64,000 nucleotides of DNA from a virus: positions 1 to 64,000 of IMG/VR virus record IMGVR_UViG_3300027763_002499; one strand, given 5' to 3'. A program made the position numbers and the translations under genes. The notes below the pieces were generated by a model. It had not been told where the DNA came from. It was given only the letters and a program-made list of their open reading frames with translations, and did no database searches. Within the stretch, counting starts at the first letter, position 1. Each line of letters starts with the position of its first letter. Of this stretch, positions 7,352 through 11,710 are shown piece after piece.

Positions 7352-8365
7352 TTAGTGACCATTCACTAATTTTGCAAATTCACCACTGGCCAAGTTCTTG
7401 CCCTTGCTTTCACATTGAATATCAAACCACTGGCTAAAACCAGCGGCCCAGTCATTAACTGCTGAATTCCAGTAAAAGTCTGAGTGTGCTCTAAGCTTTT
7501 GCTTTTTGTAGCCTAGTGCCAGGAGATTGGCCATGGATGGGAGGACATCTCGGGCATGGCCAACGAGTACATCTTCGCGAGAAACACTGTAATGGCAAGC
7601 AGGACGCACACCACGCCAACTATCGATAACACGTTTAACACGGTCATCACCAGGCTGTATATATTCACCCGAGTTAATCCAATGATGGTGTATGTCAAGT
7701 ACAATTGGGCAGATATCAGCCAGTTGTAAACAGGTTTCAAGATTGTGTGAGTTTTCTTCATTTTCTATAGTTATGCAGTTACGGGCCTCAGGTGACAACC
7801 GATTATATACTCGGCGAATTCCGTCAGGCCCTTGTTGACCGGAAATGTGTACATTGATCTTAAAATCTTGAAAGGTTTGACCATAACCCATCCAGCGAGC
7901 CAGATCAGCATGATATTCAAATTCTAAAATACTGCGCTCTACAATGCCTTCATTGGCACTGGCTAACACACAAAACTGTCCAGGGTGAAAGCTCAGACGT
8001 ACACCCAGTCTACGTGCGGCCTCACCAACTGGAGCAAAGATTCTAGCACAATGGTCCTGTACATCTGCTTGTTTCCAAAAAGGAATCCAGTCTTCATGTG
8101 TGTAGCCTTGTAGCATTTCTGAACCCAGACGTACCATGCGTCTATGTTCTGGTAAGGTGGCCACACGTTCTACCAACAGCAAAGCCGCCCGAGCATTATG
8201 ATTCATAATGTCCCACTGACGCTGTTCAGCTTCCGACTTGTGTTCACGTAACCAGCGCATGGTAGTACTACGTCCGTTTAAGTCTCGATCCACTGCTGAG
8301 GGTTTTAGGCCAGCAACTTCGCTAGGATCATTGATCCACTTGCAACAAAAACCTACTCGACCCAT
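7352..8365 (-). CDS. uvsE: UV damage endonuclease UvsE/UVDE
   Basis: RLSFHPGQFCVL, INVHISG, TIENEE, VLDIHHHW, HYS, RAHSD, CESKGKNLA. Confidence 0.9.
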   Translation of the reverse strand: MGRVGFCCKWINDPSEVAGLKPSAVDRDLNGRSTTMRWLREHKSEAEQRQWDIMNHNARAALLLVERVATLPEHRRMVRLGSEMLQGYTHEDWIPFWKQADVQDHCARIFAPVGEAARRLGVRLSFHPGQFCVLASANEGIVERSILEFEYHADLARWMGYGQTFQDFKINVHISGQQGPDGIRRVYNRLSPEARNCITIENEENSHNLETCLQLADICPIVLDIHHHWINSGEYIQPGDDRVKRVIDSWRGVRPACHYSVSREDVLVGHARDVLPSMANLLALGYKKQKLRAHSDFYWNSAVNDWAAGFSQWFDIQCESKGKNLASGEFAKLVNGH

Positions 8366-8373
8366 AATGGCTC

Positions 8374-8565
8374 CTACCAATGACGTATTACGTTAGCACA
8401 AATAAAGAAACATGTAATTACATGTATTATAACCCAAAATGTCTTTAAGGTCAAGGCAATTCTGGCTTCTTTTCTTGTCAAGATGGGCACATCGGGCCTA
8501 TCCTCATCTGTATGTCCCATTAAATGACCAGTGGCTCTGGCCCAAATTTTTTCTAAACTATTCAT
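8374..8565 (-). CDS. small membrane protein
   Basis: 63 aa with C-terminal hydrophobic helix. Confidence 0.6.
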   Translation of the reverse strand: MNSLEKIWARATGHLMGHTDEDRPDVPILTRKEARIALTLKTFWVIIHVITCFFICANVIRHW

Positions 8566-8574
8566 AAAAATAAT

Positions 8575-8789
8575 GCCACGAAGCAGGGGAAACGAAAATA
8601 GTCAAATATCAAACGTCAAACATCTAGAATCAAACATACGCTTTTTGCTCAGATATACGATCAAACATCACTTTAATTATTTTATATCTGAGCAAAGCTG
8701 GATGAGTTAGTTTTCAAGACTAATTCAGTACTTGTGCATCGCATGAAGCGATACTATTATTTTCGCCTTTGCCCTGGACCAAGTGTGGC
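8575..8789 (-). ncRNA. candidate ~215-nt structured RNA with tandem heptamer repeats
   Basis: long-range closing stem (8575-8600 with 8758-8789), 14-bp perfect hairpin 8644-8696, two smaller hairpins, 5 x 7-nt NNUUUGA repeats at 8602-8636. Confidence 0.65.
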
Positions 8790-8792
8790 GGC

Positions 8793-9371
8793 TTAGTCTA
8801 GCCCAAGTTCAGACAGCACAAGTGCTACCTGTTCGGGTACTTCAATTTCTGTGCGGACATTGATACCGACCATTTCGTCCTTGATTTTGCGACGTCGACG
8901 ACGTATTGTTTCTAATTCTTTCTTTGCTGTTGCAATAGATTCAGCTGGCACAACGTTAACGTCAAGACTGTAATCACGACCGTAAATGCTAACTCGTTCG
9001 TTGTTGCTGTTGGCTTTTCGACTTTCAATTTCTGCGGCCAGCGCATCCAAGTTAGGACGAACCACAGCTTCACTAAATGCTTTTAAACGGGCCTCTGCAC
9101 TGGCCAACATTGCTTCTTCGGCAAGGTAATCTGTAATACCAACTTCTGCGTTCTTTTTAGCCACTACAGCACGTAAGAACTTGTTTGCGTTAAGCAACCG
9201 ACCAGCTTGTGCATGGTTTGTTTTTACCTTTGCCAGTTGTTCTTCTAAACGTGCAACAACATCTGTTTCAAACAAGCTGATTTTTACAGTTGTTTCTTCT
9301 GTGCCAAGACGTTTGATTTCGTCGGTGATGGTTTGCTGAACCACACTGGCCTTGCGTAGATTGATTTTCAT
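8793..9371 (-). CDS. coiled-coil protein of unknown function
   Basis: 192 aa, largely helical; basic RRRRRKIK patch; own TTGACG-17-TATACT promoter (9433-9405). Confidence 0.8.
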   Translation of the reverse strand: MKINLRKASVVQQTITDEIKRLGTEETTVKISLFETDVVARLEEQLAKVKTNHAQAGRLLNANKFLRAVVAKKNAEVGITDYLAEEAMLASAEARLKAFSEAVVRPNLDALAAEIESRKANSNNERVSIYGRDYSLDVNVVPAESIATAKKELETIRRRRRKIKDEMVGINVRTEIEVPEQVALVLSELGLD

Positions 9372-9416
9372 GGGATTCCTTAGAAGTTTAAGTGTCTATG
9401 TGTTAGTATAACACCA

Positions 9417-9869
9417 TCACTCATCATCGTCAAGTACTTCTGGCAATTTTGGTAAGATATATTGAGCAGATATTTTTAACAAGGGCAAGCCCAATGGATC
9501 GTTGGCGTTGACACGGCCCACAATGTCAAATTCCAATCCATTATTGCTGGCAATATCAACTGTGGCAAATATCCAGCGAGGTATATTTGCTGTATGCATA
9601 AGTTTAATATCCAATTGTGCGGCCATAGGATATCTTTTATATTGGTTAAAAACTGTTTCTAATATTGCATGGTCCAACAATGACAAAATGGCTCCGTTGT
9701 GTATGGAGCCAAGTTGATTCTTGTGAAATTGGTTGCTGAACCAGGCAAAACTGCCAGACATTTCATCAATCTTATACCATAATGGCATAATGTTGCCAAT
9801 GAAATCTTGACGCTTTGTTCCCCTATATGTGTACCCAAGAAGTTCAAATGCCCCGGGAGTATATTTCAT
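9417..9869 (-). CDS. PaaI-like hotdog-fold thioesterase
   Basis: NQLGSIHNGAILSLLDHA resembles the PaaI N-x-x-G-x-x-HGG...D motif. Confidence 0.55.
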   Translation of the reverse strand: MKYTPGAFELLGYTYRGTKRQDFIGNIMPLWYKIDEMSGSFAWFSNQFHKNQLGSIHNGAILSLLDHAILETVFNQYKRYPMAAQLDIKLMHTANIPRWIFATVDIASNNGLEFDIVGRVNANDPLGLPLLKISAQYILPKLPEVLDDDE

Positions 9870-11710
9870 GACCAGGAAGTTGTGCCGGAGATTTTAACCC
9901 AGATAAACGCATTGCCATCTGTGTAATCAGCATTGCAAATGTATAAATCAACACCATCAATGGAATAATCTCCACGTTTGTTAATGCTTGAACCATTAGG
10001 ACTGCTGGGTTTGTCAACCAAGCGTGTAGGAGTTGTGATAATACCAGTGTCTTCATTATAACTAATGCCACCTGTAGCACTTATTGAATGGCGGGCACGA
10101 GTTTGTGTAAAGTACAAGTTTGTTGTTCCGCCTTCGGGAATGTCAGCAGTACTTGGTTTGCTGGTTAGGTCTGCATAACTACCACTACGAGCAACTGAGG
10201 CTATATTAAGGTCAGGTTGATCGGCCAGGCTGTTATAGCTTCCGTTGAACAGAGTAGGTTTGTCCAGTAAATCATTATAACTACCACTTGTAGCAACTGT
10301 AGCAAAGCCAATGTTGCTTGTTTCTACACCATTTACAGAACTACCTGTAAATACAACATCCTCACCTGTAATTGTACTAGAATTAAAATCACTAACGCTT
10401 AATTTATCGTTAACATCTGCGGTAATTGTTGTTATAATTTCCACAGCATCGGCTATATCTGCAAGCTGTATGTTTACCCAATTTTGTGTTGCAACTTCTA
10501 ACACAGCCAATCTGTAATCAACCAAGGCATCTGAGTAGTATTTTTTACCACCAATTGCTGTACTTTCGGTTATATCATCAGTTGTAAGTCCCGACAGCGC
10601 AGATATAACTCGTGCGTTTGTAAAGTACAAGTTATTGGTGCCTTCTGTTAAGATATCAGTGGTCCTTGTCTCTAAAAACTCAGCAACTCTTTGATTTGTA
10701 TAATATTTGTTAGTGCCTTCGGTAATGTTAGTGGTTGTTGACCAATCTGGCCTGTTTGTTAAGTCGGTGTAGCTACCACTGAATAATTCTGGTCTGTTTG
10801 TTAAGTCGGTGTAGCTACCACTGAATAATTCTGGTTTACTTATTAAGTCTCCATAACGTCCACTGAATGCAACAGCTGACAAGTTTTCCAATGAATAACC
10901 ATAATTGTCCAGCATTGTGCCGCTGAAATCATCAACTGAATTGGTAACATCACCCCCATCTATATTGGTCGGGTCGTAGCTGTTGATAGCATTGTCAACA
11001 TATTCTTTTGTAACAGCTTGTTTGTTTGCTGTGATTTCTGAATTTAAATATACTGCATCAAACGTTGGCGCTAAATCATAGCTGATAACACCAGTTGAAT
11101 TATCATAACTCAGAAAAGATCCAAATGTACTAATTGCGTCACGTACTTTAGCATCTGTGTAATATTTGTTTGAGCCTTCGGCGATGTCTGTTGTAGTTAA
11201 TGTGACACTGCCAGATTTACTGTTAACAGAGGTAACACCGCCAACCACTGTGATTACACCAGTGGTGCTGTTATAAGAACCAGCACCTTCAACAGTTATG
11301 GCACTACGAGCACGACTATCTGTATAAAACTTATTTGTACCTTCGCTTAGATTTGTAGTGGTTTTGGTTGCAAACTGGGTGCTGAATAATGTATTAAAAT
11401 CGGCGGCCGAAACCTTTTGATTTATTTGTGCAATTATACTTGCGGCAAAATTTGGGTCATTTCCAATGGCAGTTGCTAACTCTTTTAATGTATCTAATAT
11501 AGTTGGAGCACCGTTTATAAGTGAGTTAACTGCTGAACTGATAGCCAGATTGACGTAGGTTTTATCTGCTAAATCTCTGTCTGATGTAACAGCATCAAAT
11601 AGTAAGTCGGCAGTGGTCTTTAGTGTTAGCCCAGATTGAAGCAAGATAAGTGAATCTTCTGTTCCAACACTACTGGCTGGGTTTAATTGGGAAATTTTTA
11701 CTATTGACAT
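9866..11710 (-). CDS. tail fibre/virion structural protein
   Basis: GAPTILDTLKELATAIGNDPNFA, repeated EGTNKYYT and SGSYxDLxxKP motifs typical of phage fibres. Confidence 0.75.
   Translation of the reverse strand: MSIVKISQLNPASSVGTEDSLILLQSGLTLKTTADLLFDAVTSDRDLADKTYVNLAISSAVNSLINGAPTILDTLKELATAIGNDPNFAASIIAQINQKVSAADFNTLFSTQFATKTTTNLSEGTNKFYTDSRARSAITVEGAGSYNSTTGVITVVGGVTSVNSKSGSVTLTTTDIAEGSNKYYTDAKVRDAISTFGSFLSYDNSTGVISYDLAPTFDAVYLNSEITANKQAVTKEYVDNAINSYDPTNIDGGDVTNSVDDFSGTMLDNYGYSLENLSAVAFSGRYGDLISKPELFSGSYTDLTNRPELFSGSYTDLTNRPDWSTTTNITEGTNKYYTNQRVAEFLETRTTDILTEGTNNLYFTNARVISALSGLTTDDITESTAIGGKKYYSDALVDYRLAVLEVATQNWVNIQLADIADAVEIITTITADVNDKLSVSDFNSSTITGEDVVFTGSSVNGVETSNIGFATVATSGSYNDLLDKPTLFNGSYNSLADQPDLNIASVARSGSYADLTSKPSTADIPEGGTTNLYFTQTRARHSISATGGISYNEDTGIITTPTRLVDKPSSPNGSSINKRGDYSIDGVDLYICNADYTDGNAFIWVKISGTTSWS
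10752..10835. repeat. perfect 42-bp tandem duplication in the fibre gene
   Basis: identical units 10752-10793 and 10794-10835 (PELFSGSYTDLTNR x2). Confidence 0.9.

What the first reader, a model, noticed from the sequence alone, without database searches (positions are those of the whole stretch)
8575..9433. Coiled-coil protein followed by a structured RNA with tandem heptamer repeats: candidate undescribed protein-RNA module
Seen: a gene with its own promoter (TTGACG-17-TATACT, 9433-9405) encodes a 192-aa helical protein with a basic RRRRRKIK patch. Three nt after its stop begins a ~215-nt non-coding stretch whose ends pair: GCCAC/GTGGC, CAGGG/CCCTG and CGAAAATA/TATTTTCG (8575-8600 with 8758-8789). 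Inside are a perfect 14-bp hairpin (8644-8657/8683-8696) and two smaller hairpins (8703-8727, 8736-8754). There is also an unpaired run of five 7-nt units in exact register: UGUUUGA UUCUAGA UGUUUGA CGUUUGA UAUUUGA (8636-8602), plus a sixth UGUUUGA in the big hairpin loop. This is far more structure than a terminator needs in such a tightly packed genome. Inference: an oligomeric protein binds the repeats of its cognate RNA. Analogies are TRAP-like wrapping, a type III toxin-antitoxin-like pair or a protein-sponging RNA. I do not recognise it as a named family.
Basis: partly seen in the sequence, partly recalled or inferred. Interest (0 to 1): 0.82.

Follow-up and report, generated by a model that had tools for sequence, protein, structure and literature searches.

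The report
Phage UUG-heptad RNA with partner protein
Directly behind a small phage gene lies a real, conserved, folded RNA of about 225 bases that shows a UUG every seventh base; RNA and gene travel together in many large phages and probably form an undescribed RNA-protein particle whose job is still unknown.

Summary
Window 8574-8798 (- strand) encodes a ~225-nt structured RNA: 44 homologous loci keep it, 39 of 53 base pairs show compensatory changes, 90.3% of cells pair against 36-45% in slid controls. It matches no Rfam family. Its hallmark is a single-stranded run of five heptads, U(U/A)G plus four freer bases, and a sixth UUG in the long hairpin loop. New here: the gene's last codon and stop codon form a covarying helix with the RNA. 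A model built from RNAs lying UPSTREAM of 30%-identical homologues finds this RNA, 56 of 59 loci of a further clade, and Caulobacter phage CcrColossus; there is one copy per genome. The ~190-aa protein has no Pfam, PHROG, NCBIfam, PADLOC or PDB relative. Best reading (0.55): gene and RNA make one particle in which protein copies read the phased UUG triplets, as HutP reads UAG-N4. It is not a described VIPR system (7-nt not 5-nt units, no sequence link, spacers not hypervariable). This scan had already reported the same module on at least 14 other genomes; I reached it independently and agree.

The parts
9405..9433 (-). sigma-70-like promoter of the protein gene (TTGACG-17-TATACT)
   Evidence: Consensus scan, 10 of 12 matches, TG before -10. 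Nine such sites in 2.8 kb against 6.2 expected, so weak on its own.
8793..9371 (-). gene of the 192-aa partner protein (unnamed viral family; N-terminus MKINLRKA, basic RRRRRKIK patch, conserved C-terminus)
   Evidence: ORF. 151 relatives at E<=0.001 among 717 candidates. 733 50%-identity clusters at E<=0.001, nearly all 185-200 aa. No Pfam, PHROG, NCBIfam or PDB match.
8574..8798 (-). the structured RNA as a whole (about 225 nt)
   Evidence: Conservation starts in the last codons and stops sharply after GUGGCA. Model R1 scores it 217.1 bits and finds a single copy in the 90.5-kb record.
8777..8798 (-). helix P0: last Asp codon plus stop codon (8798-8792) paired with 8783-8777; its loop holds the 5' strand of P1
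   Evidence: 7 pairs, 100% paired in 43 distinct sequences. TAA to TGA covaries with U to C in 6 sequences, GAC to GAU with G to A in 1.
8575..8789 (-). closing helix P1 (8789-8785 with 8579-8575)
   Evidence: 98.1% of cells paired, 2 of 5 pairs with changes on both sides.
8582..8780 (-). helix P2 (8780-8779 and 8776-8772 with 8588-8582)
   Evidence: 96.7% paired, 4 of 7 pairs with changes on both sides. Its two outer pairs compete with the 3' strand of P0.
8590..8769 (-). helix P3 (8769-8767 and 8765-8758 with 8600-8590)
   Evidence: 91.6% paired, 7 of 11 pairs with changes on both sides.
8736..8754 (-). hairpin P4
   Evidence: 7 of 7 pairs with changes on both sides, 81.8% paired in a MAFFT alignment that is poor here.
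8704..8726 (-). hairpin P5
   Evidence: 6 of 7 pairs with changes on both sides, 92.5% paired.
8640..8698 (-). long hairpin P6 (8698-8683 with 8657-8640, AA bulge); its 25-nt loop 8682-8658 carries the sixth UUG motif
   Evidence: 13 of 16 pairs with changes on both sides. The loop motif UGAURUUUGAU is nearly invariant in 44 sequences.
8601..8639 (-). single-stranded tract of five heptads, U(U/A)G plus N4
   Evidence: Triplet columns nearly invariant and spacers variable. Mean pairwise difference 0.109 at triplets, 0.336 at spacers, 0.500 at synonymous sites of the gene.

Best explanation
Window 8574-8798 (- strand) is a member of an uncatalogued, virus-only class of structured non-coding RNA. 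It is co-transcribed with, and functionally tied to, the ~190-aa protein encoded beside it. Shown: the RNA is a closed multi-helix scaffold (P0-P6). The scaffold holds out a single-stranded tract of five phased U(U/A)G triplets, 7 nt apart, next to a long hairpin whose loop carries a sixth UUG. Shown: the same RNA class sits on the same strand next to homologues of the protein down to about 30% identity, either behind the gene (this window, Caulobacter phages) or in front of it. Inferred: several copies of the protein bind the RNA, one per triplet, as hexameric HutP reads UAG-N4 or TRAP reads GAG repeats, giving a particle of fixed stoichiometry that acts in trans. Inferred: because the stop codon lies in helix P0, a terminating ribosome must open P0, P1 and P2, so the scaffold closes only on untranslated or processed RNA. 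What the particle does is not known. In other clades the module lies inside tRNA arrays and often holds an RNA polymerase omega-like gene, which points to RNA or transcription biology.
For: A real RNA. In the window clade 44 of 44 unique loci with enough flank keep the element; one (L044) lacks the P4/P5 arm. 39 of 53 pairs change on both sides, 90.3% of cells pair, 0 of 500 shuffles reach this, and slid controls give 35.8-45.2%. RNAalifold finds 24 of 33 pairs compensatory. One family across clades. Model R2, built only from 12 upstream-type RNAs, hit 56 of 59 loci of a further clade just upstream of the gene; the 3 misses have under 90 nt of upstream sequence. It also hit window-clade downstream RNAs (L005 6.7e-5, L009 3.3e-4, L011 9e-4, L012 2.6e-3, L052 0.011; 5 of 22 searched). 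Further hits were CcrColossus 2.8e-5, CcrPW 6e-3, L094 1.2e-3 and L179 7.8e-3. R1 aligns heptads on heptads in L079 and L075. Family alignment: 45 of 50 pairs change on both sides, 92.9% paired, but it is fitted to the model. Linkage: one copy per genome, beside the gene, in 4 of 4 whole records of 238-353 kb. In the window clade the next gene downstream differs between loci while the RNA stays (sequences). Triplet reading: UUG is fixed and spacers drift at about the synonymous rate. Five heptads recur in distant clades. Expression hint: a 217-nt contig of a freshwater metatranscriptome (depth 17.4) covers 8587-8789 plus 15 nt of the gene's end. The protein family is 91-98% viral in the Atlas clusters. 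Genome collections gave 0 hits and 1 MAG contig in two scans.
Against: Adjacency on one transcript is also what a cis-regulatory element would show. The protein has no recognisable RNA-binding domain. R2 reached only 5 of 22 window-clade loci with default filters. Neither model gave a clear hit in L092, and L069-L073 gave only partial R1 hits (L071 0.0094, L069 0.64), so the claim of linkage in every clade rests partly on reading those flanks by eye. The RNA contig comes from a relative about 90% alike. Contigs show neither ends nor strand, DNA can be present in RNA libraries, and contig ends may simply mark where conservation stops.
Confidence: 0.55

Rival explanations
1. The RNA works without the neighbouring protein. 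It acts alone, like the RNA-only assemblies GOLLD and ROOL, or it binds or sponges a host factor that recognises phased UUG. The protein is only a co-transcribed neighbour.
For: No RNA-binding domain is detectable in the protein. In one clade the module lies in tRNA islands, and in L105 a GOLLD RNA lies 1.4 kb away (RF02032, 198.8 bits). GOLLD and ROOL lie near tRNA islands and have no known protein partner (passages of 10.1101/2024.12.08.627333).
Against: Gene and RNA stay adjacent and co-oriented from 94% down to about 30% protein identity while their order flips and all other neighbours change. Mere neighbours would be expected to separate.
Confidence: 0.17
2. It is a cis-acting element of the protein's own mRNA: an autoregulatory operator, or a stability or translation element. 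It sits in the 3' UTR in some clades and in the 5' UTR in others.
For: It is always on the same transcript as the gene. The stop codon lies inside helix P0. In upstream-type loci the RNA ends about 25 nt before the start codon.
Against: A scaffold of 220-250 nt and seven helices, conserved in architecture while moving from 3' to 5' of the gene, is far more than known operators need. In half of one clade an omega-like gene separates the RNA from the protein gene (27 of 54 loci). A regulatory role would not exclude a particle acting in trans.
Confidence: 0.1
3. It is a transcription-riding particle, nut/N-like or put-like. RNA and protein modify host RNA polymerase so that it reads through terminators or highly structured tRNA arrays.
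For: In upstream-type loci the order is promoter, RNA, (omega-like gene), protein gene, then tRNAs. The omega-like ORF is PF01192, 53.3 bits against a cut-off of 26, and is present in 27 of 54 loci of that clade plus L088, L089 and L091. The protein has an arginine-rich patch. In L001, L015 and L043 the RNA is followed by a hairpin plus T-run and a new promoter (read by eye).
Against: No boxA or boxB-like element was identified or tested. The own 90.5-kb record has no tRNA. In the window the RNA follows the gene and the next ORF starts 9 nt after it, without a terminator. Resemblance to lambda N/nut is recalled, not tested.
Confidence: 0.1
4. It is a gapped guide RNA of a VIPR-like kind. Protomers hide each UUG and expose the four variable bases (20 in all) to read a DNA or RNA target.
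For: The logic is the same as in VIPR: a phage-encoded ~195-aa protein beside an RNA of fixed triplets alternating with variable bases, with the RNA upstream or downstream of the gene (10.64898/2026.04.26.720920, section 4; SUSP1 locus located). Spacers are the only variable columns in an otherwise invariant stretch of the upstream clade.
Against: Spacers are not hypervariable: 0.402 against 0.418 at synonymous sites, and 0.336 against 0.500. There are only 5 units of 7 nt, against 9-16 units of 5 nt. There is no sequence similarity to either protein of the SUSP1 locus (hhalign probability 0.1-0.2%). No gapped complement exists in the own 90.5-kb record apart from the gene itself; two 4-mismatch hits against about 0.6 expected.
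Confidence: 0.06
5. It is a DNA-level element (iterons of an origin, a partition site) or a type III toxin-antitoxin pair.
For: Short direct repeats next to inverted repeats. The + strand folds nearly as well as the - strand.
Against: Compensatory changes keep pairing, including 126 G-U cells that are strand-specific (my sum). Orientation relative to the gene is fixed in all clades. No toxin family was found. The repeats are 7 nt, not the 30-40 nt that I recall for ToxI-type antitoxins.
Confidence: 0.02

Closest known systems
HutP with the hut terminator RNA of Bacillus subtilis (PMC2425495; passages read)
   Same: A protein oligomer reads triplets spaced 7 nt apart: XAG repeated three times with four-base spacers, and in-line cleavage at U498, U505 and U512. 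The triplets are fixed and the spacers free. There are six triplets in all for a hexamer; here there are five in a row plus one in a hairpin loop.
   Different: The triplet is UUG (UAG in one unit of the window). The tract is framed by a closed ~225-nt scaffold instead of lying in a terminator. The protein is not a HutP relative: no Pfam family reached its cut-off for any of the proteins scanned. It is a phage module, not an operon leader. Binding is not shown.
VIPR systems: Vipr protein plus vrRNA (bioRxiv 10.64898/2026.04.26.720920, sections 4 and 20 read; 10.64898/2026.04.26.720927, abstract only)
   Same: Phage-encoded. A small protein (195 aa in the SUSP1 locus) lies beside an RNA in which a fixed triplet alternates with variable bases. 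The RNA may lie before or behind the gene. In VIPR the protomers polymerise along the RNA and sequester each triplet.
   Different: Period 7 (UUG/N4, 5 units) against period 5 (GGY/NN, 9-16 units; variants NNNGG, YNNNG and NNNNG are all 5-mers). The RNA is a closed multi-helix scaffold, not a repeat tract with a 3' tail. Spacers are not hypervariable. There is no sequence link. The RAMP fold could not be tested.
TRAP with the trp leader (from established knowledge; mentioned in PMC2425495)
   Same: A ring-shaped oligomer wraps RNA by reading many phased triplets.
   Different: TRAP reads eleven GAG/UAG triplets with 2-3-nt spacers, is a different protein family and acts as an attenuator. Nothing here shows a ring.
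GOLLD and ROOL RNAs of phages (10.1101/2024.12.08.627333, passages)
   Same: Ornate phage-encoded RNAs of unknown function near tRNA islands. In clade A4 this module sits inside such islands, and in L105 beside a GOLLD.
   Different: They are much larger (about 600-800 nt), have no protein partner and form RNA-only cages. No Rfam GOLLD or ROOL match exists in the window.
Ro protein with Y RNA (rsr-yrlA loci; recalled, not tested)
   Same: A protein gene with its partner non-coding RNA encoded right beside it; the ends of the RNA pair into a closing stem.
   Different: The protein is not a TROVE protein. The only YrlA row in the Rfam scans was a chance-level one on a tRNA of L092 (25.4 bits against a gathering score of 69).

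Membership tests
VIPR (Vipr + vrRNA) | vrRNA made of 9-16 tandem 5-nt units, a fixed GGY (or related) triplet plus NN | tested here: not met
   Units are 7 nt, U(U/A)G plus N4, five in a row. The definition comes from sections 4 and 20 of 10.64898/2026.04.26.720920. The supplementary type tables could not be seen.
VIPR (Vipr + vrRNA) | the protein is a RAMP (RRM core, G-loop, thumb) | not testable with these tools
By sequence only: hhalign of the family profile A3 against the 195-aa and 146-aa proteins of the SUSP1 locus gave probability 0.1-0.2%. This says little, because RAMPs share little sequence.
VIPR (Vipr + vrRNA) | the variable positions are hypervariable between close relatives | tested here: not met
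   N4 sites differ at 0.402 against 0.418 at four-fold synonymous sites (12 sequences), and at 0.336 against 0.500 (44 sequences). In close pairs the values are 0.14 against 0.24-0.25.
VIPR (Vipr + vrRNA) | phage-encoded, with the RNA in the intergenic space next to the protein gene, on either side | tested here: met
   Atlas clusters are 91-98% viral.
HutP / hut RNA | the protein belongs to the HutP family | tested here: not met
   No Pfam family reached its cut-off for the window protein or for the other family members scanned. The PDB profile search gave only chance-level rows.
HutP / hut RNA | triplets 7 nt apart (triplet plus 4-nt spacer) | tested here: met
   The HutP spacing comes from PMC2425495.
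HutP / hut RNA | the triplet is XAG and the sites lie within a terminator that the protein opens | tested here: not met
   The triplet is UUG, with UAG in one unit of the window. No terminator-like site was found on the - strand within 8574-8798.
Type III toxin-antitoxin (ToxIN-like) | a toxin endoribonuclease family next to an array of long RNA repeats | tested here: not met
   PADLOC gave no toxin hit in 6 family members, only one weak TIR row (E 5.5e-4) in 1 of 6. The repeats are 7 nt inside a scaffold. The length of ToxI repeats is recalled.
Any Rfam 15 family (incl. GOLLD, ROOL, tmRNA, YrlA, 6S) | a match to a covariance model | tested here: not met
   0 matches at gathering score in the 64-kb window. 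No row over the RNA at E<=1 in L096, L097, L098, L075 and L092, nor at E<=0.1 in five A4 loci.
lambda N/nut-type antitermination | boxA/boxB RNA elements and Nus-factor dependence | not tested
   Considered only from gene order and the omega-like gene. The resemblance is recalled.

The most novel reading that the evidence does not exclude
The particle is a second, independent kind of noncontiguous nucleic-acid reader. Protein copies clamp each invariant UUG and expose the four bases between them, 20 positions in all and framed by a rigid RNA scaffold, to recognise a gapped DNA or RNA target. This is a 3+4 code beside the 3+2 code of VIPR. It would be used by giant, tRNA-rich phages against rivals or to steer host transcription.
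Probability: 0.08. Interest if true: 0.95.

Novelty: categorically new. Interest (0 to 1): 0.8.

Why it matters
If gene and RNA do form a particle, this is an unrecognised ribonucleoprotein carried by many large phages: 733 protein clusters at 50% identity, from freshwater jumbo phages to cultured Caulobacter phages. Phage-encoded RNPs are few, and each one found so far (CRISPR-like guides, VIPR, the phi29 packaging RNA) opened new biology or tools. The phased-triplet tract on a closed scaffold is a simple, testable design. CcrColossus and CcrPW infect a standard laboratory bacterium, so the question can go straight to the bench. The stop codon buried in a covarying helix is an unusual link between translation of the protein and folding of its presumed partner RNA. 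In other clades the module sits among tRNA arrays, with an omega-like gene and GOLLD RNA nearby. It may therefore help explain what these unexplained RNA islands of phages do.

Tried and rejected
Known RNA family: rejected.

Terminator or 3' stabiliser: rejected. There is no U-run, seven covarying helices are present, and in other clades the RNA lies upstream of the gene.

Leader of the downstream gene: rejected. The downstream gene differs between loci while the RNA follows the protein gene.

Small ORF in the region: no ORF of 40 aa or more on the - strand within 8575-8790, and the substitutions are compensatory.

Extra copies: none in the own record.

Protein name: Pfam, PHROGs, NCBIfam, PADLOC and the PDB profile search gave nothing above cut-off. 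phrog_25230 (unknown function) appeared weakly in 4 of 10 distant members. The DIP1984/DUF6847 lead is seen only as 19% of members of an Atlas cluster at rank 7 and is not among the 25 Pfam families listed.

Cultured relatives: only CcrPW and CcrColossus (4 records of 2 phages).

DNA similarity of the window to the phage collection: none.

RNA evidence: one metatranscriptome run held 0.04 of the words. Two contigs lay on 8587-8789 and 8708-8753, and nothing lay on the coding part. I draw no conclusion from the parts without cover.

Folding energy as a test of strand: not informative.

Gapped-guide test on the own record: negative. It was not extended to public collections, because that would have meant typing joined patterns.

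Literature: searches found no description of this RNA or protein. The 7-nt-period cluster in 10.64898/2026.10.21.760802 is a different element: fixed tetramers, a reverse-complemented second array, Patescibacteriota, no protein (passages). For 10.64898/2026.10.15.759431 I saw only the listing. Supplements of all papers were closed and may list VIPR variants that I could not see.

Structure prediction, complex prediction and the Atlas structure search gave no result, so nothing is said about fold or oligomer.
Full report
WHERE THE WINDOW COMES FROM. The window is the first 64 kb of a 90,548-base virus record that CheckV rates 27% complete, so it is a piece of a jumbo phage. Genes upstream of the finding are tail-fibre-like (PHROG tail families). 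Downstream lie a small conserved ORF (8374-8565, phrog_1679) and a UvdE-like endonuclease (7352-8380; PF03851, 102 bits). The record holds no tRNA (aragorn) and no Rfam family at gathering score in the window.

THE OBSERVATION. The stretch folds far better than shuffles (z -5.0 for 8560-8800; z -4.78 for 8574-8798). So does the opposite strand (z -4.22), so energy alone does not decide the strand.

CONSERVATION AND COVARIATION. Sixteen viral loci and 78 metagenome loci encode relatives of the 192-aa protein. I removed 17 duplicate flanks and 5 flanks shorter than 260 nt, which left 66 unique flanks. Of these, 44 including the window belong to the clade with 56-94% protein identity. All 44 carry the element, and L044 lacks the P4/P5 arm. 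Conservation begins in the last codons of the gene and ends abruptly after GUGGCA. What follows differs between loci: a small MNSLEKIW-type ORF, another small ORF, other genes, or a hairpin with a T-run and a new promoter before the UvdE-like gene (read). For a six-helix structure that I drew on the window sequence, 90.3% of 2206 cells pair and 39 of 53 pairs change on both sides. No shuffle of 500 reaches any of the five measures, and sliding the partners by 1-3 columns drops pairing to 35.8-45.2%. RNAalifold on its own finds 24 of 33 pairs compensatory. By my sum of the table, 126 cells are G-U pairs, which fit only the - strand.

A HELIX OVER THE STOP CODON. With 12 more bases on the 5' side, the last Asp codon and the stop codon (8798-8792) pair with 8783-8777 in 43 of 43 distinct sequences. 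Six sequences with TGA in place of TAA have the matching U-to-C change, and one with GAU in place of GAC has G-to-A. The 5' strand of P1 lies in the loop of this helix. P0 and P1 therefore form a pseudoknot or alternate, and the outer two pairs of P2 compete with P0. Inference: a terminating ribosome must open the closing helices.

THE HEPTADS. The tract 8639-8601 is a triplet-plus-spacer array rather than a 7-mer repeat: U(U/A)G is nearly invariant and the four bases between triplets vary. The upstream-type clade reads UGUGGN followed by five UUG-N4 units. The same five are seen in L120, L091, CcrColossus and the window clade. In clade A4 three units, an inserted hairpin and, read by eye in L109, two more units make five. 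The loop of the long hairpin holds a further UUUG in each clade I read. Mean pairwise difference in the upstream clade is 0.011 at triplets, 0.402 at spacers, 0.119 in the rest of the RNA and 0.418 at four-fold synonymous sites of the gene. In the window clade the values are 0.109, 0.336, 0.298 and 0.500. The spacers are thus roughly neutral, not diversifying.

ONE RNA FAMILY, ALWAYS BESIDE ONE PROTEIN FAMILY. The protein family is large: 733 clusters at E<=0.001, 193 at 1e-10 and 15 at 1e-30, nearly all 185-200 aa. It is viral (Atlas clusters 91-98% viruses; genome collections gave none and one MAG contig).

In the clade with 30-32% identity (L074-L090) the flank downstream of the gene holds a tRNA or a gene on the other strand. 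A conserved structured region with the same order of parts lies upstream, behind a TATAAT box: closing helices, small hairpins, a long hairpin, five heptads, then the 3' strands of the closing helices. Model R1, built from the window clade, hits these upstream RNAs over their full length (E 0.005-0.01 in 55.8 kb with filters off) and aligns heptads on heptads.

Model R2, built only from 12 upstream RNAs, finds 56 of 59 loci of a further clade (A4) just upstream of the gene at E 1e-8 to 1e-23, or as 5'-cut partial hits. The three misses lack upstream sequence. R2 also finds L091 and L088, five window-clade downstream RNAs, CcrColossus, CcrPW, L094 and the MAG contig L179, always on the gene's strand and directly adjacent. 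The family alignment shows 45 of 50 pairs with changes on both sides. It is fitted to the model and so leans towards it. In four whole records (353, 238 and 282 kb, and CcrColossus at 280 kb) R2 finds exactly one copy, beside the gene; the record of L081 was not held. Weak points: L092 gave no hit with either model, and L069-L073 gave only partial R1 hits. For those loci I rely on reading G/U-rich repeats inside a closing stem.

CONTEXT IN OTHER CLADES. In clade A4 the module sits inside arrays of 7-16 tRNA genes in 6 of the 7 loci scanned; the seventh, L102, shows 2. L105 has a GOLLD RNA 1.4 kb upstream. In 27 of 54 A4 loci with 300 nt or more of upstream sequence, and in L088, L089 and L091, an RNA polymerase omega-like ORF (PF01192) lies between RNA and protein gene. 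A second conserved, apparently structured stretch follows the gene in 11 of 15 A4 loci sampled.

WHAT THE PROTEIN IS. It is unknown. No family in Pfam, PHROGs (only weak phrog_25230, of unknown function), NCBIfam, PADLOC or PDB sequences was found. Six columns are invariant across 32 diverse members (L5, R6, A8, R67, N74, N171), and the N- and C-termini and a basic patch are conserved.

COMPARISON WITH WHAT IS KNOWN. HutP reads XAG triplets with four-base spacers on both faces of a hexamer (PMC2425495, passages). The spacing is the same as here; the triplet, the protein and the setting differ. There, a phage RAMP protein polymerises on an RNA of GGY/NN pentamers and exposes NN as a gapped guide for DNA. 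I located the SUSP1 locus (KT454805.2, 27499-29511, - strand; a run of twelve NNNGG units) and compared its two proteins with the family profile. No similarity was found. Period, unit number, RNA architecture and spacer variability all differ. I therefore do not file this under VIPR, although it may work in a related way.

EXPRESSION. One freshwater metatranscriptome holds a 217-nt contig (depth 17.4, about 90% alike) that spans 8587-8789 plus 15 nt of the gene's end. It shows that the sequence of a relative is present in an RNA library, and no more.

EARLIER NOTES OF THIS SCAN. After I had reached the reading above, searches showed that follow-up agents reported the same module on at least 14 other genomes, with the same verdict. 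My tests agree with them.

VERDICT. A real, conserved and uncatalogued structured RNA is obligatorily linked to an uncharacterised viral protein. Most likely the two form a particle in which the protein reads phased UUG triplets (0.55). Its function is open.

Noticed in passing
L104:3074-3400, L109:3074-3360 and 9 further A4-clade loci: A second conserved, GC-richer stretch of about 230 nt follows the partner-protein gene directly and precedes a tRNA-Met. Visible compensatory changes occur in a GUCUAGGGC...GCUAGAC helix. No Rfam match at E<=0.1. It is present in 11 of 15 loci sampled.
   Followed up: partly
L105:655-1119: A GOLLD RNA (RF02032, 198.8 bits against a gathering score of 150), with a tRNA-Lys inside it, lies 1.4 kb upstream of the module within a tRNA array.
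   Followed up: no
L104:2275-2517, L091:2751-3008 and 28 further loci: A phage-encoded RNA polymerase omega-like ORF (PF01192) is wedged between the heptad RNA and the partner-protein gene.
   Followed up: partly
L092:2982-3065: ARAGORN calls a tRNA with a four-base anticodon (gtag) inside a phage tRNA array. It could be a frameshift-suppressor-like tRNA or a miscall.
   Followed up: no
L075:3580-3653: A tRNA-Gly gene starts about 10 nt after the stop codon of the partner-protein gene in the clade whose heptad RNA lies upstream.
   Followed up: no
window 8374-8565 (-): A small conserved ORF (63 aa, phrog_1679, E 3.4e-7) starts 9 nt after the RNA's last base, with no obvious Shine-Dalgarno sequence. 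Related small ORFs take the same place in other loci.
   Followed up: no
window 9866-11710 (-): A tail-fibre-like protein of 614 aa with internal near-repeats (SGSYTDLTNRPELF twice) and hits to many PHROG tail families.
   Followed up: no
window 7352-8380 (-): A UvdE-type UV endonuclease homologue (PF03851, 102 bits; phrog_8420) in a jumbo phage. In L001, L015 and L043 it follows the RNA directly, behind a hairpin plus T-run and its own promoter.
   Followed up: no
L097:4606-4660 and L098:4594-4640: In the two Caulobacter phages a hairpin of unrelated sequence in each phage lies between the stop codon and the conserved RNA. It may be a variable insert or a processing site.
   Followed up: no
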